From positions 1-35,293 of the forward strand of contig DASRJF010000079.1 in assembly GCA_035649615.1 (NCBI GenBank): DNA of 35,293 nucleotides. Reading direction: 5' to 3'. Shown here one piece after another: positions 14,001 through 27,616 of this stretch (position 1 is the stretch's first letter; every line of letters begins with the position of its first letter). This DNA comes from Planctomycetota bacterium. GTDB lineage: Bacteria; Planctomycetota; MHYJ01; JACPRB01. Both the position numbers and the translations under genes were made by a program. The notes beneath the pieces are model-generated. The model was not told the DNA's origin. It saw nothing but the letters and a program-made list of their open reading frames with translations, and made no database searches.

Positions 14001-14048
14001 GACGCCGACCTGAAGGCGGCGCGGGCGCGGGTCTCCGGTCGGCCCTGA
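11016..14048 (+). CDS. Membrane Ser/Thr protein kinase STK2: two MshEN/T2SSE_N-like modules, zinc ribbon, Hanks kinase, TM helix, periplasmic TPR repeats
   Basis: The track start at 11016 is TTG. ATG 11040 is more likely because TATACT lies 6 nt upstream. Kinase motifs are GRGGMGIVYKA, FALKIL, HRDLKPAN, DFGLAK and GTPHYMAPEQ. The zinc ribbon is CPGC-x16-CRRC. The TM helix is ALAAISLFLFAISGGLVLFLM. The C-terminus has many TPR-like repeats. Confidence 0.9.
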   Translation: MPIGYTWSMEVGSKPPTSAIHGGATAPASPPARGGDDRLLGSLAVREGFVSSQQVEECVALQKSAASPRKLGEILIEKGYITAKRLMALLDIQSRQVRIVAADPALGGLFGQIALDLGFVPADKIEQALQEQASLSRTGSPAMLGQILLRKGWLQTGQFLEILKVQRRTILRCPGCDTFYRFEEKDRGSKFACRRCGNIVPIPAAEPDEPRAGASPSVPGKRAGESGTQFGRYAIQEELGRGGMGIVYKALHKDLNTVFALKILRETEISSAEVLDRFKREAQAEARLRHPNIVSIHDAGQESGVHYLAMDYIEGDPLTTHLARGFKIRDMIARLEKVLQAVHHAHEEGIIHRDLKPANIMIDLAGEPHVMDFGLAKFLDDPKRLMLTKDGSFLGTPHYMAPEQIRGEARLVGPRSDIYSLGVILYEILCGRTPHVAPNSVEIFHKILTEEPPPPRLFNARVHPDLQTVCLKAIDKDPAVRYATAGEFADDLRRYLEGEPILARPRPWPIRALRRLRKNKSTALAAISLFLFAISGGLVLFLMSRDAREFDRIAKEAKESFDDRQYEEALLHAQSALRLRPDDKAMAEFVEWVTNRIRTQREEFSKRLVQDEKRREAEPRIAAARIMLEMIPRQADLDGAGVMKRAAEVEKIFDDALKIVTDHEDALHGRGRARMLKGDAAGALEDFATVLEKAPGRVEARQDAARVRLSLVIEARLVDPRPPGVPPASAFVEARKRAHAEFSEVWASMSRDPARDEFAQAALRWLDGKIADAAGGLDRYVGSYPADPDAWRLRAMARLVSGNPEGAESDLSMAARYSPGDVVTRLARAWVRHVRGDAAGADADLAAVAALAPQSPARALLRGRMLLDRGGFPAAADAFGAAAALDPKSPGAALGTGLARLRRDDLEGALAPLQRAAELDAADAWPLLLQSEVQERRGRAPEALEASEAAVRRAPDAAVAYERRARAWARLEKFPEAVRDLERAVKLDPSSAARLDADLKAARARVSGRP
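11028..11033 (+). promoter_or_regulatory. -10 box candidate for STK2 (leaderless geometry)
   Basis: TATACT with exactly 6 nt before ATG 11040, so the predicted +1 is the A of the ATG. Confidence 0.35.
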
Positions 14049-14150: not shown

Positions 14151-17100
14151 CTAGAACTTCTTGTGGATGCGGGTGATGTCGCGGATCCGCGGGTCGCTGA
14201 CCGCCTGCGACACCGCTTCCTCGGCCTGGCGGGTTCCCTGCGCCGCCAGCGCGAGGACCGCCGCGGCGCGCGTCTCCTCCCCGAAGCCCTTCACGAGGCC
14301 GAAGAACCGGGGGCGCGTCTGCGCGATCTTCGTCAGGAGCGGCACCACGGCCGCGTTCGGGACCTGGCGGAAGTACGCCGAGCACAGGATCATGAGCGCC
14401 TCGTCCTGCGCCCCCTCGAGGATCTTCCCCACCTCGGCCTTCACCGCCTCGATCTTCATCTGCGCGGCCGCCTCGAGCCCCGAGTCCCTCAACTCCCTCG
14501 AGGAGTTCGCCAGCAGGCGGCGGATGATCCCCGCCACGACCGAGCGGGGCCAGTGCTCGGCCGACTTGAGAATGATCCCCCTCAGGTCCGGGCTGCCGTG
14601 CTCGGCCAGCATCGCCAGGTGCCCCGCGATCGGCGCCGTCAGGAGCGGTTCGATGACCTGCAGCACCCGCACCGTGCGCTCGATCGGGCCGTCCGGCGGG
14701 ATCAGGCGCATGATCTCCACCGCCAGCCGTTCCGCCGACGCGGACAGGGAGAGCGCGATCGCCCGGCGGATCCGCACGTCGGGCTCCTCCGCCAGGATGT
14801 CCACGAGCTTCTCCACGGTCGGGCCCCCGACCGCGAGGAGGATCGTGATGGCCGCGTTGCGGTCGTCCTCCGAGGGCTTCCTCACGGCCGCGCAGATCGC
14901 GTCGAACGCCATCGACTGCGGGATCAGAAGGAGCGCCGCCTCGCACACCGCCGCGACCTCGGGCGGCGTGACGGGGGAATCCGCCCGGCGCCGGAGCGTC
15001 CGGCCCGCGATCTCCGCCAGCTCCCCGAGGCATCCGGACGCCGCCGCCGCGGGGATCCAGACCGGAAGCAGGTTCACCGCGGCGCGCACGTGGAGCGGCT
15101 CCGTGTCCTCCGACAGTCTCATCTTGAGCGACGCGGCCGACCGCATGACCGCGAGCTTGCGCGTCCCCGGCGAGGCGAACGCGATCGACCGCGTCAGGAG
15201 GTTGAACGCCCGCGTCCGGTGCGAGAGGCTCGGATGGTGGAAGTGGGTTCCCAGCCGGTCCACGAGCTGCTCCGCGACGGGCCGTCCCGCGCCGTACGCG
15301 AGGGCCTCCACCAGGAGCGGGAACTGCCGCTCGAGGTCGGGCGTGAGGAACTCCTCGTTCGAGCGCGCCAGGTGCTCCCGCGCCCGGATCTCCGACCGCA
15401 CCGGCTTGGGCGGAGGGTGCAGCGGCATCTCCAGGTCGTCGGTCGCCCGCTCGTAGACGCGCGCGCCGAACGCGACGTGGCTGAATTGCGTGAAGAGCCG
15501 GTCCCCCGTGCCGGGCTGCATCGCCTCCTCCGGCGACAGCGAGAAGTAGCTGATGAGGGCCCGGATCTCGTCCTCCATCAGGCCCCGCCCGATGAGCACG
15601 CTCTTGATCTTGCGGTGGTCGATCTCCTTCGTCAGCCAGGCGCCCGCGTCGCTGAAGAACTTCGCGTCCGCCGGATGACCGTTGAGCACCAGTTCGGCGT
15701 CGGCCGTTCCCCACGCCACGGCCGGCACCTTGCGCAGGAGTTCCATGAAGGCGCGGACGCACTGGGCCGTCGTTTCTTCCACGAGCGTGTGGCCCGGCGG
15801 GTAGCGCTTCAGGTTGTCGACGCCCGCTTTGAGATACCGCATCGCGTCCCGCACCGCCGGCAGGTCGTCGGCGGGCACGGGCTTGTCCGCCGCTTCCAGG
15901 CGCACCCGGCGCATCGTTTCCCGGGCCTGGTACGCCTTCTGGACGATGTCGACCGCCTCCATGGCCTCGCGCGCCAGGAACCGCTCCCAGAAGTCGGGCG
16001 CCGCGCGCGCCCGGTCGAACGGCTCCGTGAAGTTCCGGACGATCGTCTCGATCCGCGGGGTCTCGAACGGGGGAAGAATGGTGATCGATTCAACGAGACG
16101 GTCGTCGAGGAGCCGTCCGAAATCCGCCGCGACCGGATTGTCGGTCTGGACGCCGTTGATCGCCGGCCCGTTCGTCGTGACGGAGAAGGTCAGCCCGGGG
16201 CCCCCGATCAGGAGCGCCTCGAGCGACCCGCGAAGCTGCGCGAGGAACGTGGTGCCGACCTGGCTCCACTGCGGATAGAGGCGCCCGATCTTCACCGCGG
16301 CCATGAAATGGCGCATCAGGGCCAGGCTTTGTTCGGTGGCCGACGCCGCCAGGTTCGTGGTCACCGCCGGAAGGCGGGGTCTCCGGGATCCCGCCTTGGC
16401 GGGCGGCTGGATGAGCGTCGCGCGCTTCTGGGCCACCTCGTCGAACTTCCGCGCCTTCGCCTCCCGGCCGGCCCGGTTGTAGTGGAACGCGATCTCGTCC
16501 GCGATGTGGTCGATGTCGCCGCCGTGGCGCGCCTCCTGCACGACGCCGACGCGGTCGTGGATCTCCTTCCGCTCCGTCGCGTCCGACGTCTGCAGCCGGA
16601 CGCGCCGCGCGTGGGCCGCCGGGAAGGAGAGGAGGTCCTGCCCCGACTCGGAGGGGACCAGCAGGCGGGTCCGCCGGACCTCGTCGATGAGGTCCAGCAT
16701 TTCCGTGTCGCCCTCGCCGAGGACTTCCTGCAGCAGCTCGGGATCGAACCGCGTGCCGATCACGGCCGCGCGCGTGAGCAGGCTGTTCGCGCCGGTCGGC
16801 AGCGCCTCGGCGACGGCGCGGATGGCGCCCGCGAGATCGCGCGAGAGGTCGGACGGCAGGAGCTCCGGCAGCGACCACCGGCCCGCCGACTGCTTCATCC
16901 GGCCGCGCAGCAGGAGGGAGCGGACGGTCTCCTCGAGGTAGAGCGGGTTGCCCTGCGACGCCACGATGAGCCGCGCCACCGATTCGTTGCTGATTTCCGC
17001 GTCGGGCAGGATGCCGCGGATCATCTGGCGCAGGTCCTCGGCAGGCAGGGGCAGCAGGTTGAGGCGCGCCGCGCCGGGCGCGAAGTCCCGCCAGAAGGCG

Positions 17101-18215
17101 CCCGAGGGCGTCATCTCCATTTCCGTCGACGGCCGGGCCGACCCGACGGCCACCAGGATCGGCAGCTTCCGGTTGATCGCCGCCCGGTACACCTCGAACG
17201 TGGCGCCGTCGGCGAATTCCACCTCGTCGATCAGCGCCAGCAGGGGGCCGATCCGCGACAGCTCATCGAAGAGCGCCCCGAAAGCCTCGAAGACCAGGCG
17301 GCCCGCGTTGCCGGGCGGCACCTGCTCCGCGGACCACTCCGGCGGAAGATCCCGCAGGACGATCGCCAGGGCCGCCCGATGCGGGGGGCTGATCCGCTCC
17401 ATGGCCTTGAGGACCATGGGGCGGTCATAGGCCATCAGCGTCTCGATTTGCTCCGCGAGCGTCGAATACGGAGCGGTGGAGCGCGACTCCTGGCTCGTGG
17501 CCGTCAGGAGGACGAACTTCTCGATCCGCGACCAGACGCCCAGCTCGTGCAGGAGCCGCGACTTGCCGACGCCGGAAGCGCCGGTGACGATCGCGACCGA
17601 CGGTCCGACGTTGCGGACGTCGCTCGCGAGCTGCCGCATGCGCGACTGCTCCCCGACCCGGCCCACGAGGATCGGGCACGGAAGTCCGCGGAAGATGCCG
17701 ATCTCCGCGAGCGCCACCGGGTCGAGCCGCCCCGCGACCGCGATCTTGTTGTGGCCCTGGTGCTTGGCGACCAGGAGCGCTCTCTCCGAAGCCTCGATCA
17801 CGGCGGCCGGGGACTTGCCGTCCATCGGATAGCTCGCCACCGACGCGCTGGCCGTCAGCGTGACCTGCCGGCCGCCTGCCGTGAAGGGCTTGTGGTCGAC
17901 CGCGCCCCGCAGTTTCTCCGCGGTGGCGGCTCCCTTGTCGCGGTCGGCGTCGGGAACGAGCAGGCAGAACGAGTCGCCGCCGTAGCGGAACAGGAGCGCC
18001 CCGTCGCCGGCGGCTTCCTTCAGGCGGGCCGCGACCTCCCGGAGCAGGGCGTCCAGCTTCGGGCGGTCGAGGCCCTCGGTCGTGGCGTTGAAGGCGTCGA
18101 GGTCGACCAGGACGAGCGCGCCCGCGTGGGCGGGCATCCGCTCGCGAAGGGCGGATAGAAGGCCCCGGCGGTTGCCGAGCCCGGTCGCGAGATCCTGATG
18201 TGAAGGGTCGACCAT
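14151..18215 (-). CDS. Degenerate GGDEF domain, P-loop (AAA_16/STAND-like) NTPase and long helical/HEAT-repeat region, 1354 aa
   Basis: The N-terminus reads DLATGLGNRRGL..LVLVDLDAFN..RYGGDSF (17967-17981). Walker A is GASGVGKS (17559-17582) and Walker B is LLALIDEVEFAD. The C-terminal third has HEAT-like repeats, e.g. EEPDVRIRRAIALSL, GSPDLRGIILKSA and DPRIRDITRI. Confidence 0.8.
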   Translation of the reverse strand: MVDPSHQDLATGLGNRRGLLSALRERMPAHAGALVLVDLDAFNATTEGLDRPKLDALLREVAARLKEAAGDGALLFRYGGDSFCLLVPDADRDKGAATAEKLRGAVDHKPFTAGGRQVTLTASASVASYPMDGKSPAAVIEASERALLVAKHQGHNKIAVAGRLDPVALAEIGIFRGLPCPILVGRVGEQSRMRQLASDVRNVGPSVAIVTGASGVGKSRLLHELGVWSRIEKFVLLTATSQESRSTAPYSTLAEQIETLMAYDRPMVLKAMERISPPHRAALAIVLRDLPPEWSAEQVPPGNAGRLVFEAFGALFDELSRIGPLLALIDEVEFADGATFEVYRAAINRKLPILVAVGSARPSTEMEMTPSGAFWRDFAPGAARLNLLPLPAEDLRQMIRGILPDAEISNESVARLIVASQGNPLYLEETVRSLLLRGRMKQSAGRWSLPELLPSDLSRDLAGAIRAVAEALPTGANSLLTRAAVIGTRFDPELLQEVLGEGDTEMLDLIDEVRRTRLLVPSESGQDLLSFPAAHARRVRLQTSDATERKEIHDRVGVVQEARHGGDIDHIADEIAFHYNRAGREAKARKFDEVAQKRATLIQPPAKAGSRRPRLPAVTTNLAASATEQSLALMRHFMAAVKIGRLYPQWSQVGTTFLAQLRGSLEALLIGGPGLTFSVTTNGPAINGVQTDNPVAADFGRLLDDRLVESITILPPFETPRIETIVRNFTEPFDRARAAPDFWERFLAREAMEAVDIVQKAYQARETMRRVRLEAADKPVPADDLPAVRDAMRYLKAGVDNLKRYPPGHTLVEETTAQCVRAFMELLRKVPAVAWGTADAELVLNGHPADAKFFSDAGAWLTKEIDHRKIKSVLIGRGLMEDEIRALISYFSLSPEEAMQPGTGDRLFTQFSHVAFGARVYERATDDLEMPLHPPPKPVRSEIRAREHLARSNEEFLTPDLERQFPLLVEALAYGAGRPVAEQLVDRLGTHFHHPSLSHRTRAFNLLTRSIAFASPGTRKLAVMRSAASLKMRLSEDTEPLHVRAAVNLLPVWIPAAAASGCLGELAEIAGRTLRRRADSPVTPPEVAAVCEAALLLIPQSMAFDAICAAVRKPSEDDRNAAITILLAVGGPTVEKLVDILAEEPDVRIRRAIALSLSASAERLAVEIMRLIPPDGPIERTVRVLQVIEPLLTAPIAGHLAMLAEHGSPDLRGIILKSAEHWPRSVVAGIIRRLLANSSRELRDSGLEAAAQMKIEAVKAEVGKILEGAQDEALMILCSAYFRQVPNAAVVPLLTKIAQTRPRFFGLVKGFGEETRAAAVLALAAQGTRQAEEAVSQAVSDPRIRDITRIHKKF

Positions 18216-18319: not shown

Positions 18320-20350
18320 TCAATTCCCCTCGTTGAGCTGGTGCAGGTACTCCGACGCCTGGCCTTCGAACTGGGTCCCCTTGAGCTCCCGAAGCAGGTC
18401 CCGGGCCATGGCCGGATAGTTCGCGGACATGGCGTACAGCGCGAGCGCGAACTTGTTCCCCGGCGAATCGAGCAGGGGAGGGAGCTTGTCGGTGCGGGTC
18501 AGGGCCATTTCGCGGATCCCCGTCGGCCCGAACTTGGACCACGGAGCGAAGTCCGACGGCTGCTGCCCGATGACGTAGATGACGCCGTCCGTCTGGGCCT
18601 TCGTGAGCGTCACATTCTTCGCCTGCGTCGTCCCGATCGTCAGCTTCAACAGGTACGGATTCGTCGCCAGGATGCGATCGATGAGCTGCTGCTTGAACAT
18701 CGCGATGTGCTCCCGGCGGCGCAGGATCTCGCTGAACTCGGGCCGCTTCAGCACGTCCGGGCCGAGCGAATCGACCAGGTCGGGACGGAATTCCTCCAGG
18801 TGTTTCATCGCCTTGTCCGTGGAGGTGCCGCTTTCGAACCAGCTCCGGATCCTCGACTGGAAGATGAACGTGGCCGAGGCCGCGATCAGCATCAGGAAGA
18901 CCACGAGCAGGATCGGGACCCACCGGCCCTTGCGCGATCCCAGCGACTCGGCGATGTCCTGCATCCCCGCCGGGAGCGTATTGACGGACGCCATCTTCGG
19001 AAGCGACCGCTTGCCTCCCCCCGAGACGTTGGCCAGCTCCTCGGCGAACGCGAGCGCGTTCTGGGGACGCTTCTGCGGATCCTTGGACAGGGACCGCATG
19101 CACAGCGCCTCCAATTCCGGGGGGACGACGAGCATCCGGCGCGAGGAGGCCGCCGCCGAGTCCCGGCCCCAGGCCAGCTCGCTCGGCGCCTTCGGTTTCT
19201 CATCCTGGACGCGCTTGAGGACGTCCATCACCTCGCCGACGAACGGCGGCTGCCCCGCCAGCATCTCGTAGAGGATCGACCCCAGGCCGTACACGTCGGT
19301 GCGCGGATCGAGCAGGTCGTTGCGCCCCGCCGCCTGCTCCGGCGCCATGTACGACGGCGTCCCGCTCACCACGCCCTGCTCGACCTTGATCTCGCCGAGC
19401 TGGCGGGCGAGGCCGAAGTCCAGGATGCAGGCGCGTCCCTCGCCCGTGACCATGATGTTCGCGGGCTTCAGGTCGCAATGGAGCAGCGGCGCCGGCCGCG
19501 TGTGCGCATAGTGGAGCGCCTGCGCCGTCTCGTAGAGGACGCCGATCCACTTCCGCGGATTCTCGTGGAAGGGCGAGACCTTGCCGGCCTTCTTGCACTC
19601 CTGGATCTCGTCGAGCATCGTCCGGCCGTCGAGGAACTCCATGCTGATGTAGTACTCGTCCTCGACCCGGCCGATGTCGTAGATCGACACGATGTTCGGA
19701 TGGCGGAGCTTGATCGCGTTGTGGGCCTCGTTGAGGAGGCTCGCGACCCGCGTGTGGCGGACCGCCTTGCCCGAGCCCTGCGGCGGAGGCTTGATCCGCT
19801 TGAGCGCCACGAGCTGGTTCAGGTAGACGTCCCACGCGCGGTAGATCGCGCCGATGCCCCCGCGCCCGATCTCGCCCAGGATGACGTACTTGCCGAACCG
19901 CTTGGAGGGATCCTTGCGCGCCTCGATGACATCGGGCGGGACCGGCGCGCTGCTGGCGACGATGATCATCGAGTCGATGCTGTCGTCCGGGCGGTCCGGC
20001 GACGGCTCGATGAGAATCGTCTCGCACTTCCCGCACTTGTAGCCGATGGCGTCCGGCCGCAAGTTGACCGTCACCATGATGTTGCAGCGCGTGCAGAGGA
20101 GGACCTTCTTGTTCTGCTCCGCGAGGGCGTCGCGGATGGCCTCCTTGGTCGTGTAGCCCTTCTGGAGCAGCAATTCGCCGATGCGCGGGACCACCGCCTG
20201 GCCCTGCATCGACTGCTGGATCTTCAGGCATTCGTCGAGGTGGACCACGGTGACGGACCCCATCCGGAGCAGGATCTGCCCCATGTCCGCCCGCGGAGGC
20301 GCGGACAGGGCGGGAGACGTCACCGGGCCGGGCGGAGGGGGAATAGCCAT
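18320..20350 (-). CDS. Membrane Ser/Thr protein kinase STK3: one MshEN/T2SSE_N-like module, zinc ribbon, non-RD Hanks kinase, TM helix, uncharacterised extracytoplasmic domain
   Basis: Track ORF 18320..20548. The real start is probably ATG 20350 (MAIPPPPGPV), because upstream of it the ORF is Arg/Cys-rich shadow. Motifs are GRGGIGAIYRA, VALKRI, HCDLKPAN (non-RD), DFGLAR and GTPSYMAPEQ. The zinc ribbon is CTRC-x16-CGKC. The TM helix is WVPILLVVFLMLIAASATFIF. Confidence 0.9.
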   Translation of the reverse strand: MAIPPPPGPVTSPALSAPPRADMGQILLRMGSVTVVHLDECLKIQQSMQGQAVVPRIGELLLQKGYTTKEAIRDALAEQNKKVLLCTRCNIMVTVNLRPDAIGYKCGKCETILIEPSPDRPDDSIDSMIIVASSAPVPPDVIEARKDPSKRFGKYVILGEIGRGGIGAIYRAWDVYLNQLVALKRIKPPPQGSGKAVRHTRVASLLNEAHNAIKLRHPNIVSIYDIGRVEDEYYISMEFLDGRTMLDEIQECKKAGKVSPFHENPRKWIGVLYETAQALHYAHTRPAPLLHCDLKPANIMVTGEGRACILDFGLARQLGEIKVEQGVVSGTPSYMAPEQAAGRNDLLDPRTDVYGLGSILYEMLAGQPPFVGEVMDVLKRVQDEKPKAPSELAWGRDSAAASSRRMLVVPPELEALCMRSLSKDPQKRPQNALAFAEELANVSGGGKRSLPKMASVNTLPAGMQDIAESLGSRKGRWVPILLVVFLMLIAASATFIFQSRIRSWFESGTSTDKAMKHLEEFRPDLVDSLGPDVLKRPEFSEILRRREHIAMFKQQLIDRILATNPYLLKLTIGTTQAKNVTLTKAQTDGVIYVIGQQPSDFAPWSKFGPTGIREMALTRTDKLPPLLDSPGNKFALALYAMSANYPAMARDLLRELKGTQFEGQASEYLHQLNEGN

Positions 20351-20426
20351 AAGCGGCCCCGGGTCGATCCCGGGGTCCGCATAGATAATACACAAATCGC
20401 GGTCGAGGAGGGAGCCCGGCGAGCGA

Positions 20427-21962
20427 CTACGGCGGCGCCCCGGCCAGGTCCGCAGGCAGGTGGGCCAGCCCGATCCGGGAGCCCCCGGCCGCCGCGAGCA
20501 GGCGTTCCACGACCACGCGCAGCTCCCGCACGTTGCCCGGCCAGGCATGGGATTCCAGGCGGCGCCGGACCTCGGGGTCGAGATGATCGTCGAGCGAACC
20601 GACGCCGCGGCCGCCGAGCGTCCTCAGGAAATGATGGAGGAGCGCCGGCAGATCGCCCATCCGATCGCGCAGCGGGGGCAGCGCGACCACGTCGCCGAAC
20701 CGGCGGTCGAAGCCCTGTCCGCTGGAGGCGCCCGCCAGGACCCGAACGTCCTCCTCCACCGACGGCTCTTCCACGAGGACGAGGAGCCGCTCGCGGATCG
20801 GTTCCGCCATCGTGTCGAGGCCGTCGACATACAGGGTGCCGCCGCGCGCCTCGGCGACGCGACCCCCGGCCCCGAACAAGGCCGCCTCGAGGAGGCCGGG
20901 CGCGACGGCCGCGCCGCGGACCGACACGAACGGTCCCACGGCGCGGGGTCCGAGGGTGTGAAGCCGCCGGGCCGCCCGCTCCTTCCCCGTGCCGGGCTCG
21001 CCCGTGAACAGGACCGGCGTGTCCGACGAGGCCGCGCGCTCGATGCTCGCGATGGCGGCGGACAGGGCGCCCGAGGTCACCAGCTCGCATCCCTCCGCCA
21101 GGCGTCCGGCGGCCGCGGCCACCGCCTCGCGGGCCCGCCGCATCCGGCGCGCGGTGGCGATCGCCCCGGCGCCGAAGGACGCGATCCACGCCGCGTAGCG
21201 AAGGTCGGCGCGCGTGAAGGCCGGCGGCGGGGCGTCGAGGTAGACGAACCCCAGCATGTCCCGGCCCGCCGCGAGGGGCGTCGCCAGCACCTCGACGGGC
21301 CGGCCCGACCACGTCCCTCCCCGCGCCGCGTCCGACGCGAGCACCGACTTGCGCTCCTTCCACACCTTGTGGAAGAGCACGTTCGAAAGCTGGATCTCGT
21401 CGTCCCCCGGGGGAGCGCGCCGCGCCGCGGGCTGGAGGCGGCCTCCTTCTGAAGCCAGCATGACAAAGCCCCGGCGCGCCTTCAGATCCGTCACCAGGCG
21501 GTCGAGGAGCATCCGGACCGCCGTGTCTTCCGGCTCCGCCCCGTGGAACGCGCGCGCGGCGTCGAGCGTGGAGGCCGTCCGCGCGGCATCGAGCGCCTCG
21601 TCGAACGGATCCTCGAGCGTTTCGGTGACGAGCGTCGCCCCGCCGGGCCGCGAGCGGGGCGAGCTGTCGCGCTCGGCCGTGGGATCGAAGACGAGCAGGT
21701 GCTCGCCGATCTCGATCTCGTCGTCGCGCGAGAGGTCCTTTTCGGCGACCTTCTGCCCGTTCACGAAGATCCCGTTGCGGCTCCCCGCATCCTGGATGGC
21801 GAACCCTGCGGAACGGCGCACGAATCGTGCGTGCACGCGGGAGATGTGGTTGCCTTCGATGCGGACGGCGCAAGAGACCGCACGGCCGACGGTGCTTCCG
21901 TCGTCGATTTCGAACGTCCGGCCGCGCAGCGGGCCTTCGACGGCGACGAGTCGGGTCGTCAT
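20427..21962 (-). CDS. FHA, GAF-like and sigma-54-interaction-type AAA+ protein with no DNA-binding domain
   Basis: Start at ATG 21962 (MTTRLVAVEGPLRGRTFEI), which overlaps the upstream stop (ATGA at 21959-21962). FHA motifs are GRAVSCAVRI..ISRVHARF..DAGSRNGIFVNG. AAA+ motifs are VLFTGEPGTGKE, GGTLYVDGLD and WPGNVRELR. The protein ends about 30 aa after the sensor-II region. Confidence 0.85.
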   Translation of the reverse strand: MTTRLVAVEGPLRGRTFEIDDGSTVGRAVSCAVRIEGNHISRVHARFVRRSAGFAIQDAGSRNGIFVNGQKVAEKDLSRDDEIEIGEHLLVFDPTAERDSSPRSRPGGATLVTETLEDPFDEALDAARTASTLDAARAFHGAEPEDTAVRMLLDRLVTDLKARRGFVMLASEGGRLQPAARRAPPGDDEIQLSNVLFHKVWKERKSVLASDAARGGTWSGRPVEVLATPLAAGRDMLGFVYLDAPPPAFTRADLRYAAWIASFGAGAIATARRMRRAREAVAAAAGRLAEGCELVTSGALSAAIASIERAASSDTPVLFTGEPGTGKERAARRLHTLGPRAVGPFVSVRGAAVAPGLLEAALFGAGGRVAEARGGTLYVDGLDTMAEPIRERLLVLVEEPSVEEDVRVLAGASSGQGFDRRFGDVVALPPLRDRMGDLPALLHHFLRTLGGRGVGSLDDHLDPEVRRRLESHAWPGNVRELRVVVERLLAAAGGSRIGLAHLPADLAGAPP

Positions 21963-23854
21963 CTCGTGATTTTCAACGTCTTCTTCATCCGTTCCAGCGC
22001 GGGCCGGCAGGCGTCCTCGTCCCCCTTCAGGACGACCTCGAGCACCTCGCCGGGGCCCAGGCGCACGTACCACCGGCTGTCGGTCTCGTAAGTCTCGCGC
22101 CCCTCCAGCGTCCCCAATTCTCCTGACGACGAGGCGCCCAGCTTCCGTGCGGCCTTTCGGGTGTCGAGCTTGACGAGCTCGTACGGCAGGTCGATGTAGC
22201 TCACGATCGCCCGGTTGTCCGGGTCGGCCGATCCGATCACGGCGAGCGTGAACGGCGGGAGATCCTTCGCGTCGCGGAACGTCCAGCCCTCGGGCTTCTC
22301 GAATGCGACGCCGAGGAGCGGCGCCTCGAAACGGTTCCCCTCCGCCGCCGGCGGCGGCGCCACTTTCGTGGCGCGGCCCTCGATCGTGTAGTCGAGGATC
22401 TCGATCTTCATGGCGCCGTGCATGAACCCCGCGCCCCGCATTCCCTCGAGCGTCGAGCCGGAATCTTCCGCGTCCGTCTCGCTGAACTTGAGGCGGGCCG
22501 CGTCGGCGACGCTCCCGCCGAGCGTCGCGTCAAAGTCCACCCACCGCCCCAGCCAGGCGCTCGTCCACGCGTGGCCTCCCCAGGCGCCGCGGTAATAGAG
22601 GTACCCGCAGCACACCTTCGCGGGGATTCCCGCCGCGCGGAACATGGCCGCCAGGAGGACCGCGTGCTCGGTGCAGTCCCCGGTCCGGTTCGTGTAGACC
22701 TCGCGGGCGCTCGCCGCCCCGATGTCCATGCTCTTCTTGTCGATGTGGTTGTGCACCCACGCGGCGAGGCGGCCGGCCACGAGGGCGGGGTCCTTCTCGT
22801 CTCCGGCGATTTTCCGGGCCTCCGCCGCGATCTCCGCGTCATCGCATTGAACGGCCGGCGACGGCTTGAGGAAGATCGCCAGGTCCGGACCCGGCGTTCC
22901 GGTCGTGGGCTGACTCGACTCCACGCGCAGGGTCACGGATCGCGCGCTCCGGTTGACCACCGACTGGGTCCCGGCCGGGGCTTTCCATTCCGCGAAGACC
23001 TCGTCGGGCCGCGTCATCTGGACGGTGAGGGCCGTGATCTCGCGGGGACGGGGAAGCGCGACGTTCGACCGCGGCATGGTTCCGAAGAAGACCTCGGGCA
23101 TCTCGGCGCCGGTGTTCTTCAGCGCCTCCTCCCGGGTCGCGGGCTCCATGACGATCTTGATCCCCATCATGTTGGTTTCCATCGCGACGGAGGACGCCTT
23201 GTCGTCCATCCAGGAGGTGATGGCGATGCCCGGTTGAAGCGACGTCTTCGTGAGGACGCGGACGAGCTCCTGTTCGCGGCCCTGGAAAGTCTTCTTCTCG
23301 CGGCCTTCCACGAGAATGGAGATCTCGTCGGGCTTCCCCAGTTCCGCGTTGAAGCTCTTGAGCGTGTAGGCGGTTCCCTTCGCGAATCCCTTCTTGAGCG
23401 TGGCAAGCCGCATTCCCTCGGACAGGATCCACTCGGGGTCCCAGGCGATCTCGGATTCGCGGGTCGCGCCTCCGGTCGTGGTCGACAGCTTGAGCCGGCC
23501 GTCCTTGATGACTCCCTCGTTCACGGTCGGGGACGACGACATCACCATGCGCGACGTGAAGCGCAGCGGCCGGCCGTCGGGAGTTTCGACATGCCGCGTG
23601 TCCGTCGTGACCTCGATGCCGGTGCCCATGCGCTTCAGGACCATGCGGGACTTGACTTGCGTTTCGACCTCGTCGGGGCGGCACGTCCGCGTGCCGTGGA
23701 CGTAACCGACGCGCACGGCGCGCTCTCCCACCACCGACATGATTCCCCAGCTCTCCTCGACCTGGACCTCGGGCTTCGGCGGCGCGAGGGGGGCCGGCAC
23801 GTGGCTGTCGCACGCCGAGGCGAGGAGAAGAAGGAGGGCGACGGCGGCGCGCAT
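21959..23854 (-). CDS. Transglutaminase-like (Cys-His-Asp) lipoprotein
   Basis: Start at ATG 23854 (MRAAVALLLLLASAC, lipobox-like ASAC), with GGGAG 7 nt upstream. The core is TGDCTEHAVLLAAMFRAAGIPAKVCCGY..GGHAWTSAWL..WVDFDAT. Confidence 0.85.
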   Translation of the reverse strand: MRAAVALLLLLASACDSHVPAPLAPPKPEVQVEESWGIMSVVGERAVRVGYVHGTRTCRPDEVETQVKSRMVLKRMGTGIEVTTDTRHVETPDGRPLRFTSRMVMSSSPTVNEGVIKDGRLKLSTTTGGATRESEIAWDPEWILSEGMRLATLKKGFAKGTAYTLKSFNAELGKPDEISILVEGREKKTFQGREQELVRVLTKTSLQPGIAITSWMDDKASSVAMETNMMGIKIVMEPATREEALKNTGAEMPEVFFGTMPRSNVALPRPREITALTVQMTRPDEVFAEWKAPAGTQSVVNRSARSVTLRVESSQPTTGTPGPDLAIFLKPSPAVQCDDAEIAAEARKIAGDEKDPALVAGRLAAWVHNHIDKKSMDIGAASAREVYTNRTGDCTEHAVLLAAMFRAAGIPAKVCCGYLYYRGAWGGHAWTSAWLGRWVDFDATLGGSVADAARLKFSETDAEDSGSTLEGMRGAGFMHGAMKIEILDYTIEGRATKVAPPPAAEGNRFEAPLLGVAFEKPEGWTFRDAKDLPPFTLAVIGSADPDNRAIVSYIDLPYELVKLDTRKAARKLGASSSGELGTLEGRETYETDSRWYVRLGPGEVLEVVLKGDEDACRPALERMKKTLKITR

Positions 23855-24019
23855 CGGTTGGCTCCCGGGAACGGATGACAGGGAACGAGCTACCCCTGCT
23901 TGAAGTCGGCCCAATGGGTCAGAGTATATACGACGCCGGCCGGGACACTTCCGTCCGTGCCGGGACAGACTCCAAGACTGGGCGTCCCTGAAGTGTGAGA
24001 ACGGGGAGCCGGGGAACTT

Positions 24020-24358
24020 CTAACGCCGGGAACTGAAGCAGTCGCTGCAGTACACGGGCCGGTCGCCGCGCGGCTTGAAAGGGACCTGCGTCTGCTTGCC
24101 GCACTGGGCGCACACGGCGGGGAACATTTCCCGCGGTCCCCCGCGTCCGCCGCCCATGCCGCCGCCGCCGCCCCCGCCGCCGCCCCCGCCGCGCCCGCCC
24201 CCGCCGCCGCCGGTCGCCGCCTTCTTCGCCGCCCGGCAGGGGGCGCACCGCTTGGGCTCATTCGTGAACCCGAGCTGGGCATGCCGCTCCTGCTCCGCCG
24301 CGGTGAACGTGAACGCCGCTCCGCACTCCACGCACGTCAACTGCTTGTCCGTGTACAT
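24020..24358 (-). CDS. Small double zinc-ribbon protein (CxxC..CxxC twice) with a Gly/Arg-rich linker
   Basis: Start at ATG 24358 (MYTDKQLTCVECGAAFTFTAAEQE). The Cys pairs are CVEC..CAPC and CAQC..CSDC. The linker GGGGGGRGGGGGGGGGGGMGGGRGG is encoded at 24137-24211. Confidence 0.75.
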   Translation of the reverse strand: MYTDKQLTCVECGAAFTFTAAEQERHAQLGFTNEPKRCAPCRAAKKAATGGGGGGRGGGGGGGGGGGMGGGRGGPREMFPAVCAQCGKQTQVPFKPRGDRPVYCSDCFSSRR

Positions 24359-25550: not shown

Positions 25551-26066
25551 CTACTTCTTCTGGCGGACGTACTCGAACTTCATCGCGTGGTCGGGCTTCC
25601 CGTCCTTCATCAGCCCCCATTCCGCCGTGAAATTGTCGTCGTCCTTGAAGGTGAAGAACGCGGAGTGCATGTGGGCGTCGGTGTCGCACTTCATGTTGGA
25701 TCCGCCGACGCAGCGGAAATCGAGCGTCCCTTCCTTCGAGTCCTTCTGCGCCTTCATGCGGGGCTGGTTGCCGATCGCGCAGTAGTGCGTGAGCACGAGG
25801 TCGTCGCCGTCGAGGTGATACATGGTGACCATCTCGTGGGGCTGGCCCGGCATGATGGTTTCCATGACGGTGGAGCCGCCGGAGACGACGCGATAGGTGA
25901 CGTTGACCTTCCCCATCTGCTTCGTGTCGGCCTGCCAGGTCCCGACCAGCTTCTTGAGCCGCTCCAGACCCGGGTGCGACTTCTTTTCCTTCTTCTCCGT
26001 TTCCTGCGCGGCGCCGGGAAGGGAGGCGGCGAGCGCGACGGCGAGGGCGGCGATCGTGAGTTTCAT
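25551..26066 (-). CDS. Secreted hypothetical protein
   Basis: Start at ATG 26066 (MKLTIAALAVALAASLPGAAQ, a signal peptide), with GGAG 6 nt upstream. I cannot name a family. The stop is 1 nt from the convergent thiF-like stop. Confidence 0.65.
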   Translation of the reverse strand: MKLTIAALAVALAASLPGAAQETEKKEKKSHPGLERLKKLVGTWQADTKQMGKVNVTYRVVSGGSTVMETIMPGQPHEMVTMYHLDGDDLVLTHYCAIGNQPRMKAQKDSKEGTLDFRCVGGSNMKCDTDAHMHSAFFTFKDDDNFTAEWGLMKDGKPDHAMKFEYVRQKK

Positions 26067-26161
26067 GAATGTTCTCCAGAGAGTTCCCCAGAAGTTATCA
26101 GTTTGATACGGGGGAGGGGATGAATACGTTGCATCCGGTTTCAACACGCGGCCGATAGAGG

Positions 26162-26170
26162 TGGTATCAT
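26162..26170 (+). promoter_or_regulatory. Extended -10 candidate upstream of the tRNA
   Basis: TGGTATCAT (TGn plus hexamer) about 60 nt upstream of the tRNA 5' end. Confidence 0.3.
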
Positions 26171-26230
26171 GTCGACGATGACGGGCCCCGCGCGCACCCT
26201 CCGAATAGCGCGCTGATCGTCCACCTTCCG

Positions 26231-26302
26231 GGGCCCGTGGCTCAACGGTAGAGCAGGGGACTCATAATCCCTTGGTTGTCGGTTCGAATCCGACCGGGCC
26301 CA
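26231..26302 (+). tRNA. tRNA with CAU anticodon (elongator Met, or Ile2 if lysidine-modified)
   Basis: Hand-folded cloverleaf. Acceptor GGGCCCG/CGGGCCC. D stem GCTC/GAGC. Anticodon stem GGGGA/TCCCT with loop CTCATAA. T arm GTCGG-TTCGAAT-CCGAC. Discriminator A. CCA is not encoded. Confidence 0.9.
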
Positions 26303-26591
26303 CTTCGACTCGCGATGCTCTGCTTCGCTCGCTCAGTGCAGGCATTCTTCCGCGAGCCGAAGTGCCCTGAGCGAGCGCAGCGAGTCGAAGGGCACGGTTC
26401 TGGTTCGCCACGGGTGACTGAAGAGCCACTTCGACTCGCCGCGACCAGGTCTTTGCGGCCCGCTCCGTGCAAGCGGGCTCGCCGCGGGACCCCCGAGTTG
26501 CATTTTATGGAACATTCGCGCCACCCGAACTGTCATAATGGGTTATACGAGCGGGAGTATTCGCCTGTCGGCGCCGAAGGAGGCCGTGGCC

Positions 26592-27567: not shown

Positions 27568-27597
27568 TTGACATTTCCTTCGCGCCGGGCCTAGAAT
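27568..27597 (+). promoter_or_regulatory. Sigma-70-type promoter candidate for the STAS-PP2C gene
   Basis: TTGACA (27568-27573), an 18-nt spacer, then TAGAAT (27592-27597). This is followed by GGAGGA and GTG 27617. Confidence 0.5.
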
Positions 27598-27616
27598 CCC
27601 GCCGGAGGACTTCGCC

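What the first reader, a model, noticed from the sequence alone, without database searches (positions are those of the whole stretch)
20427..21962. FHA-GAF-AAA+ protein that looks like a sigma-54 activator stripped of its sigma-54 contact loop, Walker B glutamate and DNA-binding domain
The AAA+ module has the bEBP hallmarks VLFTGEPGTGKE and WPGNVRELR. However, the segment between ..ALFG and GGTL.. is only AGGRVAEAR, so there is no GAFTGA loop. Walker B reads LYVDGL (D-G instead of D-E). The protein ends about 30 aa after sensor II with no HTH. An N-terminal FHA domain would read phospho-threonine, and three or four kinases are encoded nearby. Its ATG overlaps the stop of a transglutaminase-like lipoprotein gene (ATGA at 21959-21962). 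It may act as a phospho-dependent scaffold or remodeller and not as a transcription activator.
Basis: partly seen in the sequence, partly recalled or inferred. Interest (0 to 1): 0.66.

Follow-up and report, generated by a model that had tools for sequence, protein, structure and literature searches.

The report
Sigma-54 activator relic turned signalling adaptor
This planctomycete gene descends from a sigma-54 transcription activator but has lost every part needed to contact sigma-54, burn ATP or bind DNA. It is still kept under selection next to a protein kinase, so it probably now works as a phospho-threonine-reading signalling adaptor.

Summary
Window 20427-21962 (-) encodes a real 511-aa FHA-GAF-AAA+-lid protein. 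Against PspF and intact relatives it has a clean 12-aa deletion of the GAFTGA loop, Walker B DE->DG, and no HTH. It also has a 9-aa deletion of the second sigma-54 loop (pre-sensor I), loss of sensor I, of the glutamate-switch Asn and of both arginine fingers.

The Walker A P-loop, Walker B Asp and sensor II Arg are kept. The AlphaFold model is confident (pLDDT 91.7), and within-clade dN/dS of the stripped core is about 0.2. So it is a maintained pseudo-ATPase, not a pseudogene.

The closest intact relative (P0011, 48% identity) sits in the same gene cassette: transglutaminase-like protein, EBP, membrane Ser/Thr kinase, degenerate-GGDEF/STAND/HEAT protein. That locus carries two textbook -24/-12 promoters, one directly after the EBP gene; the window has none.

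Within this Planctomycetota subfamily the sigma-54 machinery decayed independently at least five times, each with different lesions. The FHA-GAF part and the cassette persist.

Best reading: a phospho-Thr and ligand-gated protein-protein adaptor that probably binds nucleotide without hydrolysing it. It is a new variant of the 'atypical EBP' kind. The adaptor function itself is inferred, not shown.

The parts
20427..21962 (-). Whole gene: 511-aa FHA-GAF-AAA*(degenerate)-lid protein, a stripped bEBP derivative
21678..21962 (-). FHA domain (residues 1-95). The pThr-binding signature is intact: G26-R27, S41-x-x-H44, S61-R-N63-G64, N68.
   Evidence: Pfam FHA E 2.9e-15. GarA/OdhI are the best solved FHA matches. 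These residues are invariant or nearly invariant in A1/A2.
21543..21677 (-). Linker (residues 96-140) with the subfamily-conserved motif RPGGAT110-LVTETLEDPF. Residues 98-106 are predicted disordered and 111-116 are predicted as a beta strand.
21138..21542 (-). GAF-like domain (residues 141-275), running into a 41-residue helix (251-291) that leads to the AAA* module
   Evidence: Pfam GAF 22.5 bits and GAF_3 25.8 bits. Orthologs carry GAF_2/GAF_3 hits. Secondary structure.
20688..21074 (-). Degenerate AAA+ alpha/beta subdomain (residues 297-425). The five-strand core is kept; both sigma-54-contacting hairpins and the R-finger helix are excised.
20979..21002 (-). Walker A P-loop GEPGTGKE (residues 321-328), conserved
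20865..20873 (-). Junction of the 12-aa deletion that removed the L1/GAFTGA loop (G364-A365-G366; intact relatives have HEKGAFTGAxEA here)
20820..20837 (-). Walker B TLYVDG (residues 376-381): Asp380 kept, catalytic Glu replaced by Gly381 in every clade member
20439..20687 (-). AAA+ lid (residues 426-508) with sensor II motif WPGNVRELR (20517-20543). The protein stops 32 aa after R479 and has no HTH_8.
21959..21962 (-). ATGA: the start codon overlaps the stop of the upstream gene (translational coupling). The same 4-nt overlap occurs in all clade loci.
21959..23914 (-). Upstream cassette gene: transglutaminase-like (Cys-His-Asp core) putative lipoprotein. The likely true start is near 23854 (MRAAVALLLLLASAC).
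   Evidence: 47% identical over its full length to the L001 ortholog
18320..20350 (-). Downstream cassette gene: 676-aa Hanks-type Ser/Thr kinase with one TM segment and a C-terminal extracytoplasmic region. It is the ortholog of the kinase downstream of the intact EBP in L001 (51% identity, full length).
14151..18215 (-). Cassette gene: degenerate GGDEF (GGDSF)-AAA_16 (STAND)-HEAT protein. It is linked to the EBP(-derived) gene in L001, in the window clade and in L018.
20379..20393 (-). Conserved 15-mer GTGTATTATCTATGC (TATAAT-like) followed by a GC hairpin, in the 76-bp spacer before the kinase gene. It occupies the position where L001 has a sigma-54-driven small gene.

Best explanation
**What it is.** The gene encodes a pseudo-ATPase that descends from a genuine FHA-GAF-type sigma-54 enhancer-binding protein. 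In this soil Planctomycetota clade the ancestor lost the following:
- by clean in-frame deletions, the two surface hairpins that grip sigma-54 (L1/GAFTGA and L2/pre-sensor I) and the arginine-finger helix;
- by substitution, the Walker B Glu, sensor I and the glutamate-switch Asn;
- by truncation, the Fis-type HTH.

**What is left.**
- An intact phospho-Thr-reading FHA domain.
- A GAF-like sensor domain.
- A long connecting helix.
- A compact AAA+ core plus lid that keeps the P-loop Lys, the Walker B Asp and the sensor II Arg. This core can probably still bind a nucleotide but cannot hydrolyse it or drive a hexameric motor.

**Proposed mechanism.** It works as a signalling adaptor or switch inside a conserved four-gene cassette: a periplasmic transglutaminase-like lipoprotein, this protein, a membrane Ser/Thr kinase, and a degenerate-GGDEF/STAND/HEAT protein.
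- The kinase creates a pThr mark, on itself, on the STAND protein or on the adaptor's own conserved Thr110 linker.
- The FHA domain binds that mark.
- GAF ligand and nucleotide occupancy of the dead AAA+ set its conformation or oligomeric state.
- The output is a protein-protein interaction, not promoter opening.

**Shown:** the anatomy, the descent from an intact activator, purifying selection, cassette conservation, and the absence of sigma-54 and DNA-binding determinants.

**Inferred:** nucleotide binding without hydrolysis, the pThr partner, and the adaptor output.
For: **Lesions mapped residue by residue**
- The mapping is against PspF and against the intact relatives P0011, P0021, P0022, P0024, P0126, P0127 and P0354.
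- G321/G324/G326/K327/E328, D380 and R479 remain invariant.

**Folded protein**
- AF2 mean pLDDT is 91.7 and pTM 0.73, and all five core strands are retained.
- The best structural matches are EBP AAA+ domains: DmpR, NtrX, PspF, FleQ, FlrC, NtrC1 and ZraR.

**Selection**
- Within-clade Nei-Gojobori dN/dS is 0.14-0.37 for the stripped AAA core, 0.04-0.21 for FHA, 0.07-0.30 for GAF and 0.11-0.37 for the lid.
- The deletion boundaries are identical across 75-89% identical orthologs.

**Descent from an activator**
- P0011 (48% identity) is fully intact.
- It sits in the orthologous cassette. Identity to the window genes over full length is 47% for the transglutaminase-like gene, 51% for the kinase and 52% for GGDEF-STAND.
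- Its locus has TGGCACgcgccTTGCg 34 nt before the ATG of a small gene directly after the EBP stop, and a perfect TGGCACggggcTTGCA before another secreted-protein gene.
- That is 2 sites with at most 1 mismatch against 0.08 expected by chance.

**The window itself**
- -24/-12 matches equal chance: 7 found against 6.97 expected, and none sits in a promoter position.
- The small sigma-54-driven gene is absent. A conserved TATAAT-like 15-mer lies in its place.

**Recurrent decay**
- On an FHA+GAF tree the subfamily is monophyletic (100/100) with intact P0011 nested inside it.
- Five lineages carry different lesions: the window clade, P0121/P0122, P0123-5/P0350, P0351 and the AAA-less P0012-20.
- So the conserved function resides in FHA-GAF plus the cassette.

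**Partner linkage**
- The gene is 4-nt coupled to the upstream gene in all clade loci.
- A kinase is adjacent in L001, L004 and L017 as well as in the clade.
- The GGDEF*-STAND-HEAT gene is adjacent in L001, in the clade and in the basal lineage L018.
Against: - No experiment exists on any member of the subfamily.
- The pThr partner, any nucleotide or GAF ligand, and any interaction with the cassette proteins are untested.
- dS is partly saturated because of strong GC3 bias. The dN/dS values are therefore rough, although saturation biases them upward.
- The AAA core is the fastest-evolving domain in the protein, so part of it may be only a structural spacer.
- The GAF assignment is borderline by Pfam score.
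- Loss of the R fingers may also prevent any nucleotide-dependent oligomerisation. In that case 'nucleotide switch' would be wrong and 'static scaffold' right.
- I could not inspect whole genomes, so I cannot exclude an intact paralog with which it forms mixed rings, or a separately encoded DNA-binding partner.
Confidence: 0.5

Rival explanations
1. Poison subunit or anti-activator. The stripped AAA+ core still docks into the ring of an intact FHA-GAF EBP encoded elsewhere in the genome. This would resemble the HrpR/HrpS or FleQ/FleT mixed rings (recalled from my own knowledge). The resulting hetero-oligomers cannot engage sigma-54, so the protein down-regulates sigma-54 transcription in a pThr-dependent way.
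For: - The AAA+ fold and lid are retained and under selection.
- Many intact FHA-GAF-AAA-HTH proteins exist in Planctomycetota.
- A -24/-12-like site (TGGCACgcgccGTGC) lies 28 nt upstream of a Usp gene in clade locus L007, which hints that the clade still uses sigma-54.
Against: - The R-finger helix, which forms much of the inter-subunit interface in EBP rings, is deleted.
- No close intact paralog is seen. The next intact relatives after P0011, which comes from a different organism, are at most about 35% identical.
- The AAA*-only search falls from 357 bits (a fragment of the same clade) to 111 bits.
- No EBP or rpoN gene lies in the window.
Confidence: 0.15
2. Relic module. Only the FHA-GAF half is functional. 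The AAA*-lid part is an evolutionary leftover retained as an inert folded spacer or dimerisation stub, on its way to the complete loss seen in the FHA-GAF-HTH forms.
For: - Sister lineages P0012-P0020 lost the AAA+ module altogether yet keep 44% identity over FHA-GAF.
- The AAA core has the highest dN of all domains, both within the clade and against P0011.
- The region where the R fingers used to be is variable within the clade.
Against: - dN/dS of about 0.2 is far below neutrality, across orthologs with synonymous divergence of about 0.5-1.5.
- The P-loop, Walker B Asp, sensor II motif and much of the lid are invariant in the clade.
- The deletions removed precisely the surface hairpins and left a confident compact fold (pLDDT above 90 across 300-500).
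Confidence: 0.15
3. Sigma-70-type 'atypical EBP' regulator that reaches DNA through a partner, or a second-messenger receptor of the FleQ/VpsR type. In the second form, the dead AAA+ binds c-di-GMP or a related nucleotide and relays it to the neighbouring degenerate-GGDEF STAND protein.
For: - Atypical EBPs without GAFTGA and with non-consensus Walker B are known: TyrR, HupR, HsfA, PhhR, NtrX and VpsR (PMC6158489), and DhaR and YplP (PMC3162934).
- NtrX is the best sequence match among solved structures.
- FleQ, VpsR and VfmH bind c-di-GMP through the AAA+ domain, using among others the post-Walker A Arg (PMC10714721). That Arg is present here (K327+5 = R332).
- A GGDEF-family gene is a conserved neighbour.
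Against: - All characterised atypical EBPs keep a DNA-binding domain; this one has none.
- The neighbouring GGDEF domain is degenerate in every locus (GGDSF, GGDAF, AGDSF, ARDAF), so it is unlikely to make c-di-GMP.
- The FleQ LFRS-type Arg immediately before the AAA+ domain has no counterpart. The window reads EGCELVTSG there. This rests on my recall of the FleQ motif and was not aligned here.
Confidence: 0.12
4. It is still a conventional sigma-54-dependent activator, as automatic annotation says ('sigma 54-interacting transcriptional regulator', 'Nif-specific regulatory protein').
For: It matches Pfam Sigma54_activat and AAA_lid_14 and has weak sub-threshold matches to NtrC, PspF and NifA models. 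Database names are listed.
Against: - GAFTGA, the L2 hairpin, the Walker B Glu, sensor I, both R fingers and the HTH are all absent.
- NCBIfam scores are about 110 bits against cut-offs of 440-560.
- -24/-12 motifs in the window do not exceed chance.
Confidence: 0.02

Closest known systems
Canonical bacterial enhancer-binding proteins with FHA or GAF sensor domains (NtrC/PspF/NifA family). The FHA-type EBPs of Myxococcus xanthus are cited from my own knowledge; the intact ortholog P0011 was found here.
   Same: - Same ancestry and domain order (FHA-GAF-AAA+-lid).
- EBP-type P-loop GExGTGKE.
- Sensor II motif WPGNVRELR.
- LPPLRxR lid entry.
- 48% identity and shared synteny with P0011.
   Different: - Lacks the GAFTGA/L1 loop, the L2 hairpin, the Walker B Glu, sensor I, the Arg fingers and the HTH_8.
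- It cannot contact sigma-54, hydrolyse ATP or bind an enhancer.
Atypical, sigma-54-independent EBP homologs: TyrR, PhhR, HupR, HsfA, NtrX, VpsR, DhaR, YplP (PMC6158489, PMC3162934)
   Same: - EBP-type AAA+ domain without a functional GAFTGA.
- Often a non-consensus Walker B.
- Brucella NtrX (5m7n) is the top sequence hit among solved structures and a top fold hit.
   Different: - All of these retain a C-terminal DNA-binding domain and act as sigma-70-type activators or repressors. The window protein has no DNA-binding domain.
- It additionally lost the L2 hairpin and the R-finger helix by deletion.
EBPs that naturally lack a DNA-binding domain: Helicobacter FlgR, Chlamydia CtcC, Rhodobacter FleT (from my own knowledge; not checked in the paper library)
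   Same: They end shortly after the AAA+ lid, with no HTH.
   Different: Those proteins keep GAFTGA and ATPase activity and still activate sigma-54 holoenzyme from solution or in mixed rings. This protein keeps neither.
FHA-domain phospho-Thr adaptors of bacterial Ser/Thr-kinase pathways (GarA/OdhI, FhaA/FhaB)
   Same: - FHA domain with the full pThr-binding signature.
- Best solved FHA matches are GarA and OdhI; NCBIfam gives sub-threshold FhaB and OdhI hits.
- Encoded next to Hanks-type kinases.
- A conserved Thr-containing linker motif could act as a cis or trans ligand, as in GarA.
   Different: - GarA and OdhI are small single-domain regulators of metabolic enzymes.
- Here the FHA domain is fused to GAF and to a dead AAA+ module.
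- The conserved linker is predicted to be a beta strand, not a free tail.
Degenerate AAA+ subunits used as static or nucleotide-binding scaffolds, e.g. the clamp-loader delta' subunit and non-catalytic ORC or dynein AAA modules (established general knowledge)
   Same: The AAA+ fold is retained under selection while the catalytic Glu, sensor I and Arg finger are lost.
   Different: Those belong to different AAA+ clades and have known partner rings. No such case has been described for the EBP clade, and no ring partner is identified here.

Membership tests
Sigma-54-dependent bacterial enhancer-binding protein (bEBP) | EBP-clade AAA+ domain (Pfam PF00158 Sigma54_activat plus AAA lid) | tested here: met
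   PF00158 E 8.2e-18, but only profile positions 5-123 of 168. PF25601 E 1.4e-17. The fold matches PspF, NtrC1, FleQ and ZraR with target-normalised TM of about 0.7.
Sigma-54-dependent bacterial enhancer-binding protein (bEBP) | GAFTGA motif on the L1 loop (sigma-54 contact) | tested here: not met
   12-residue deletion. The window reads LFG-A-GGRVAE where intact relatives read LFGHEKGAFTGAxExxxGxxE.
Sigma-54-dependent bacterial enhancer-binding protein (bEBP) | Pre-sensor I insertion (L2 hairpin) that supports L1 | tested here: not met
   9-residue deletion of FxRVGGxxx.
Sigma-54-dependent bacterial enhancer-binding protein (bEBP) | Catalytic set for ATP hydrolysis: Walker B Asp-Glu, sensor I Asn/Thr, glutamate-switch Asn, two Arg fingers | tested here: not met
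   - Walker B is D380-G381.
- Sensor I AATN is replaced by AGAS.
- The PspF N64 equivalent is Arg.
- The R162 equivalent is Gly.
- The R168 helix is deleted and the residue at that site varies within the clade (R/H/Q).
Sigma-54-dependent bacterial enhancer-binding protein (bEBP) | Nucleotide-binding set: Walker A Lys, Walker B Asp, sensor II Arg | tested here: met
   GEPGTGK327E, D380 and R479 are invariant in alignment A1. Actual binding was not tested.
Sigma-54-dependent bacterial enhancer-binding protein (bEBP) | Enhancer-binding HTH (HTH_8/Fis type). Usual but not universal. | tested here: not met
   No PF02954 hit. The protein ends 32 aa after sensor II, whereas intact relatives have 75-90 further residues.
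Sigma-54-dependent bacterial enhancer-binding protein (bEBP) | Cognate -24/-12 promoters and rpoN in the genome | tested here: inconclusive
   - Window: 7 matches with at most 2 mismatches against 6.97 expected, and none in promoter position.
- The intact ortholog's locus has 2 near-perfect sites against 0.08 expected.
Atypical sigma-70-type EBP homologs (TyrR/NtrX/VpsR/HupR class) | EBP-type AAA+ lacking a functional GAFTGA | tested here: met
   class definition from PMC6158489 and PMC3162934
Atypical sigma-70-type EBP homologs (TyrR/NtrX/VpsR/HupR class) | DNA-binding domain through which the protein activates or represses promoters | tested here: not met
   No HTH or any other DNA-binding Pfam domain. 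C-terminal truncation shown.
DNA-binding-domain-less EBPs (FlgR/CtcC/FleT type) | No DNA-binding domain, but intact GAFTGA and ATPase | tested here: not met
   The DNA-binding domain is absent (feature met), but GAFTGA and the catalytic residues are also absent.
FHA phospho-threonine-binding module | Conserved Gly-Arg, Ser-x-x-His and Asn-Gly loop residues in an 11-strand beta sandwich | tested here: met
   - G26, R27, S41, H44, N63-G64 and N68 are present and invariant or nearly invariant in 69 relatives.
- Pfam E 2.9e-15.
- The model is all-beta for residues 3-92.
FHA phospho-threonine-binding module | Binding of a pThr ligand produced by a cognate kinase | not testable with these tools
   Only gene adjacency to Hanks-type kinases is available.
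GAF small-molecule-binding domain | GAF fold and profile match | tested here: inconclusive
   PF01590 scores 22.5 bits against a 22.4 cut-off, and PF13492 scores 25.8 against 27. Orthologs have GAF_2/GAF_3 hits. The predicted secondary structure is compatible. The ligand is unknown.

The most novel reading that the evidence does not exclude
The EBP branch of the AAA+ superfamily has produced a non-transcriptional signalling protein. It is a selection-maintained pseudo-ATPase from which the sigma-54-gripping hairpins were excised. It couples Ser/Thr-kinase phospho-marks (FHA) and a small ligand (GAF and/or nucleotide in the dead P-loop) to a degenerate-GGDEF/STAND/HEAT hub and an envelope transglutaminase-like enzyme. 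The same escape from sigma-54 happened at least five times independently in one Planctomycetota orthogroup. This implies that the ancestral activator already had a second, sigma-54-independent job in this cassette.
Probability: 0.4. Interest if true: 0.7.

Novelty: new variant of a known kind. Interest (0 to 1): 0.55.

Why it matters
**A state not yet described.** bEBPs are treated as obligate partners of sigma-54. The known exceptions ('atypical EBPs') are still DNA-binding transcription factors. Here one protein has lost the sigma-54 contact, the motor chemistry and the DNA-binding domain all at once, yet it is conserved and under purifying selection. I know of no characterised EBP homolog in that state.

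**A natural dissection series.** One orthogroup and its cassette offer the following forms:
- intact (P0011);
- loop lost but motor largely kept (P0350);
- loops substituted (P0123-5);
- motor dead but HTH kept (P0121/P0122);
- loops excised and HTH lost (this gene, and P0351);
- AAA+ removed entirely (P0012-20).

This makes two questions directly testable: what an EBP scaffold does besides opening promoters, and how regulators are rewired when sigma-54 dependence is abandoned.

**Practical point for annotation.** Pipelines call these proteins 'sigma-54-interacting transcriptional regulator' or 'NifA', which is wrong. Counting EBPs by PF00158 alone over-estimates sigma-54 regulons, as Francke et al. 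(PMC3162934) warned.

Tried and rejected
- **Longer GTG start at 22073 (548 aa).** Rejected. All orthologs start at M(T)TRL, and the extension lies inside the upstream gene.
- **Pseudogene or assembly artefact.** Rejected. Lesions are identical in independent assemblies, GC3 is 0.90 and dN/dS is about 0.2.
- **HTH split off as a separate ORF.** Rejected. Only 76 bp separate the stop from the kinase start, and no ORF lies there in any clade locus.
- **Sigma-54 promoters in the window.** None beyond chance. The single 1-mismatch site (2127-2142, + strand) points away from both flanking genes.
- **Canonical sigma-70 promoter scan around the gene.** No hits. The conserved TATAAT-like 15-mer has no recognisable -35.
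- **Rfam scan of the window.** Only a tRNA. The consensus fold of the conserved spacer gave one compensatory pair and no convincing RNA structure.
- **Looking for the loop-less AAA* in other architectures.** Only a fragment of the same clade turned up.
- **Cassette in P0122 and P0124 loci.** Not present; these proteins sit in different neighbourhoods.
- **Active diguanylate cyclase next door as a c-di-GMP source.** Rejected. The motif is GGD[S/A]F, AGDSF or ARDAF in all loci.
- **P0351 as sister of the window clade (shared deletion).** Rejected by the tree (0/60 bootstraps).
- **Literature searches for FHA + GAFTGA, or for GAFTGA-less EBPs in Planctomycetes.** Nothing specific found.
- **rpoN in the clade genomes.** Could not be checked.


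Full report

Yes. The minus-strand ORF 20427-21962 encodes a 511-aa protein starting MTTRLVAVEG. GC at the three codon positions is 0.78/0.54/0.90, the same signature as the neighbouring genes, and every domain shows it.

Pfam finds:
- FHA (24-86, E 2.9e-15);
- a borderline GAF (146-263, 22.5 bits against a 22.4 cut-off);
- Sigma54_activat (297-403, E 8e-18), which covers only profile positions 5-123 of 168;
- AAA_lid_14 (432-508, E 1.4e-17);
- no HTH_8.

NCBIfam EBP equivalogs (PspF, NtrC, NifA and others) score about 80-110 bits against cut-offs of 440-800.

The ATG at 21962-21960 overlaps the TGA (21961-21959) of a Transglut_core gene. Four protein-kinase ORFs lie in the window, plus a SpoIIE/PP2C-type phosphatase.

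**2. The lesions, residue by residue**

I aligned the protein to PspF (sequence taken from the PDB hit) and to intact FHA-GAF-EBPs. The full damage is:
- a 12-residue in-frame deletion that removes HEKGAFTGAxEA (the L1 loop);
- Walker B hhhhDE changed to LYVDG;
- the PspF N64 equivalent (partner of the Walker B Glu) changed to Arg;
- a 9-residue deletion that removes FxRVGGxxx (the L2/pre-sensor I hairpin);
- sensor I AATN changed to AGAS, with 3 residues missing;
- a 9-residue deletion of the helix that carries the two arginine fingers, with the first-finger position now Gly;
- no C-terminal 75-90 residues, so no HTH_8.

What is kept and invariant is the P-loop GExGxGKE, Walker B Asp380, sensor II Arg479 within WPGNVRELR, and the LPPLRxR entry to the lid. 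The residues that bind nucleotide survive. The residues that hydrolyse it, sense it across subunits or transmit it to sigma-54 are gone.

AlphaFold2 with a 69-sequence alignment gives a confident model (mean pLDDT 91.7, pTM 0.73). All five core beta strands are present, a 41-residue helix (251-291) joins GAF to AAA*, and only residues 98-106 are disordered. Foldseek places the model with EBP AAA+ domains: DmpR, NtrX, PspF, FleQ, FlrC, NtrC1 and ZraR.

**3. It is maintained, not decaying**

- Ten cluster representatives at 75-100% identity (505-511 aa), from independent soil metagenomes and Planctomycetota MAGs, share exactly the same boundaries.
- Within the clade, Nei-Gojobori dN/dS is 0.14-0.37 for the stripped AAA core, 0.04-0.21 for FHA, 0.07-0.30 for GAF and 0.11-0.37 for the lid.
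- dS is partly saturated by the GC3 bias, which can only inflate these ratios.
- The AAA core is the least constrained domain but is clearly under purifying selection.
- A search with the AAA*-lid part alone found only a fragment of the same clade (357 bits) before dropping to generic EBPs (111 bits). The loop-less module is therefore specific to this clade.

**4. Where it came from**

The nearest relative outside the clade, P0011 (48% identity, 636 aa), is completely intact. It has GAFTGA, DE, the L2 hairpin, AATS, FREDLYWRL and HTH_8.

Its locus (L001, assembly GCA_964464755.1) has the same gene order as the window:
- zf_Tbcl;
- the transglutaminase-like gene;
- an extra kinase, not present in the window;
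- the EBP;
- a small gene, not present in the window;
- a membrane Ser/Thr kinase;
- the GGDEF-AAA_16-HEAT gene.

Full-length identities to the window genes are 47% (transglutaminase-like), 51% (kinase) and 52% (GGDEF-STAND). These are orthologous cassettes.

In L001 there are two near-perfect sigma-54 promoters (2 sites with at most 1 mismatch against 0.08 expected), both intergenic and correctly oriented:
- TGGCACgcgccTTGCg lies 34 nt before the ATG of a 71-aa secreted Arg/Asp-rich gene. That gene starts 173 bp after the EBP stop and ends in a terminator-like hairpin.
- TGGCACggggcTTGCA lies 25 nt before the ATG of a 250-aa secreted protein.

In the window, matches to the same pattern equal the chance expectation (7 against 6.97), and none lies before a gene in the right orientation. 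The small gene is absent.

The 76-bp spacer before the kinase instead carries a 15-mer, GTGTATWATCYATGC, followed by a GC hairpin. The 15-mer is found once, exactly, in all eight clade loci. The loss of activator functions therefore went together with loss of the adjacent sigma-54 transcription unit.

**5. A subfamily that keeps abandoning sigma-54**

Further searches and a motif table show other members with different lesions:
- P0121/P0122: L1 shortened by 9 residues, Walker B VAE, R fingers lost, Walker A Lys->Arg in P0122, HTH kept.
- P0123-P0125: NAFPGA or GALPGV in place of GAFTGA, Walker B LEE or LLE, R fingers lost, no HTH.
- P0350: L1 shortened by 8 residues, but DE, L2 and the first R finger intact; no HTH.
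- P0351: L1 shortened by 18 residues, Walker A GAGRT, Walker B IEN, no HTH.
- P0012-P0020: FHA-GAF joined directly to HTH_8, with no AAA+ at all.

On neighbour-joining trees built only from FHA+GAF (and from FHA+GAF+lid) columns:
- the subfamily is monophyletic (100/100);
- each lesion type forms its own clade (100%);
- intact P0011 is nested inside, most often as sister of the window clade (28/60 and 42/60 bootstraps);
- P0351 is basal.

Regaining GAFTGA, the R fingers and an HTH is implausible, so the ancestor was intact and decay happened at least five times independently.

The cassette is old. The basal lineage P0351 (L018) also has the order transglutaminase-like gene (C-terminus recognisable), EBP*, GGDEF*-STAND-HEAT. 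Other members sit next to kinases: L004 has a 4-nt overlap with a kinase gene, and L017 has a convergent kinase. What persists through all of this is FHA-GAF plus kinase and cassette linkage. What is dispensable is sigma-54 activation.

**6. How it most likely works**

*Shown*
- An intact pThr-binding FHA signature: G26-R27, S41-x-x-H44, N63-G64, N68.
- Its best solved relatives are the kinase-pathway adaptors GarA and OdhI.
- Translational coupling to the periplasmic transglutaminase-like gene in all clade loci.
- An apparently active Hanks-type membrane kinase immediately downstream, carrying VALK, HCDLKPAN, DFG and GTPSYMAPE.
- A conserved partner gene with a degenerate GGDEF (GGDSF), a STAND NTPase and HEAT repeats.

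*Inferred*
- The protein is a phospho-Thr and ligand-gated adaptor or switch. Its dead AAA+ module probably still binds nucleotide, in the manner of a Walker B trap, and provides a dimerisation or docking platform.
- Its output is protein-protein interaction within the cassette, not transcription.
- The subfamily-conserved linker motif RPGGAT110LVTETLEDPF is a candidate cis or trans FHA ligand. However, AF2 predicts it as a packed beta strand, so this is only a lead.

*Rivals*
- Poison subunit for an intact EBP. This is weakened by loss of the R-finger interface and the absence of a close intact paralog.
- Inert relic. This is weakened by dN/dS and by the invariant P-loop and sensor II.
- DNA-tethered atypical EBP or c-di-GMP receptor. 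This is weakened by the missing DNA-binding domain and by the degenerate GGDEF neighbour.
- Conventional activator. This is excluded by sequence.

**7. Comparison with what is known**

Atypical EBPs without GAFTGA and with altered Walker B are an established class: TyrR, PhhR, HupR, HsfA, NtrX and VpsR (PMC6158489), and DhaR and YplP (PMC3162934). All are DNA-binding regulators. EBPs without a DNA-binding domain (FlgR, CtcC, FleT; from my own knowledge) keep GAFTGA and ATPase activity.

The window protein fails the defining tests of all three groups:
- the canonical bEBP: no GAFTGA, no L2 hairpin, no catalytic set;
- the atypical EBP: no DNA-binding domain;
- the DBD-less EBP: no GAFTGA, no ATPase.

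It shares ancestry and fold with them. I file it as a new variant: an EBP-derived pseudo-AAA+ adaptor. Database names such as 'sigma 54-interacting transcriptional regulator' and 'Nif-specific regulatory protein' are misleading.

**8. Limits**

- No whole genomes could be examined, so the presence of rpoN and of intact EBPs in the clade is unknown.
- One -24/-12-like site before a Usp gene in clade locus L007 (TGGCACgcgccGTGC) hints that sigma-54 is still in use there.
- All functional statements beyond the anatomy are inference.

**9. Verdict**

- Observation: confirmed and extended.
- Novelty: a new variant of a known kind.
- Interest: moderate to good (0.55). The main reasons are the clean excision of both sigma-54 loops under continued selection, the intact syntenic ortholog with sigma-54 promoters, and the recurrent independent decay in one orthogroup.

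Noticed in passing
window 20351-20426 (15-mer at 20379-20393, minus strand); L002 11574-11588, L003 3670-3684, L005 11580-11594, L006 11574-11588, L007 7372-7386, L008 11577-11591, L009 6028-6042: An exactly conserved 15-mer, GTGTATWATCYATGC (containing TATAAT or TATTAT), is followed by a GC-rich hairpin and then the kinase start codon. It occurs once per clade locus, in a genome of about 70% GC. It could be a -10 element plus 5' stem-loop, or another regulatory site. Only one compensatory pair was seen, and there is no Rfam match.
   Followed up: partly
L001 12035-12299 and 18596-19388: The locus of the intact ortholog has two textbook -24/-12 promoters. One drives a 71-aa secreted, extremely Arg/Asp/Glu-rich peptide (signal peptide, then ERRGERERRQERRNRDDRRRDHRRDRDD...) followed by a terminator-like hairpin. 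The other drives a 250-aa secreted protein with no Pfam match. These are the probable ancestral regulon of this EBP lineage.
   Followed up: partly
window 14151-18215 (-); orthologs in L001, L002, L005, L006, L007, L018: The 1350-1390-aa GGDEF-AAA_16(STAND)-HEAT protein has a degenerate active-site motif in every locus (GGDSF, GGDAF, AGDSF, ARDAF). It is a conserved pseudo-cyclase fused to a STAND NTPase. Together with the dead EBP this makes two pseudo-enzymes in one cassette.
   Followed up: partly
window 24020-24358 (-): A small zf_Tbcl-type double CxxC zinc-ribbon protein with a long poly-Gly tract (GGGGGGRGGGGGGGGGGGMGGGRGG) between the two ribbons. It is conserved at the head of the cassette in L001, L002, L005, L006 and L007.
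   Followed up: no
window 30046-31161 (-): An IS110-family transposase gene (DEDD_Tnp_IS110 plus Transposase_20) sits between the DUF1425 gene and the sigma-70-family gene. Those two genes are directly adjacent in the syntenic loci L002 and L005, so this is a lineage-specific insertion.
   Followed up: partly
window 26231-26303 (+): tRNA-Met (CAT), the only RNA gene found. The mechanical ORF 25551-26261(-) overlaps its first 31 bases, so that ORF's true start is probably further in.
   Followed up: no
L006 1724-5873: In the MAG GCA_035649315.1 the genes flanking the cassette are replaced by conjugation-type genes (TraL, TraU, TraG/TrwB-like coupling protein). A mobile element has inserted next to the ThiF gene.
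   Followed up: no
L004 9171-11134; proteins P0012-P0020: A sister lineage encodes about 350-aa FHA-GAF-HTH_8 proteins with no AAA+ domain at all. In L004 the gene is 4-nt coupled to a 277-aa kinase-domain-only protein. This is the opposite way of leaving sigma-54: the DNA-binding domain is kept and the motor dropped.
   Followed up: partly
L007 98-113 (+): TGGCACgcgccGTGC lies 28 nt upstream of a Usp-family gene in a clade member's contig. It is a possible sigma-54 promoter, suggesting the clade has not lost sigma-54 itself.
   Followed up: no
window 3-1979 (-): A kinase-domain protein fused to a STAND (AAA_16) NTPase, cut by the window edge. Together with the two TPR-kinases (7522-10947, 10710-14048) and a SpoIIE/PP2C phosphatase (27572-29125), it makes the region unusually dense in Ser/Thr phospho-signalling genes.
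   Followed up: no
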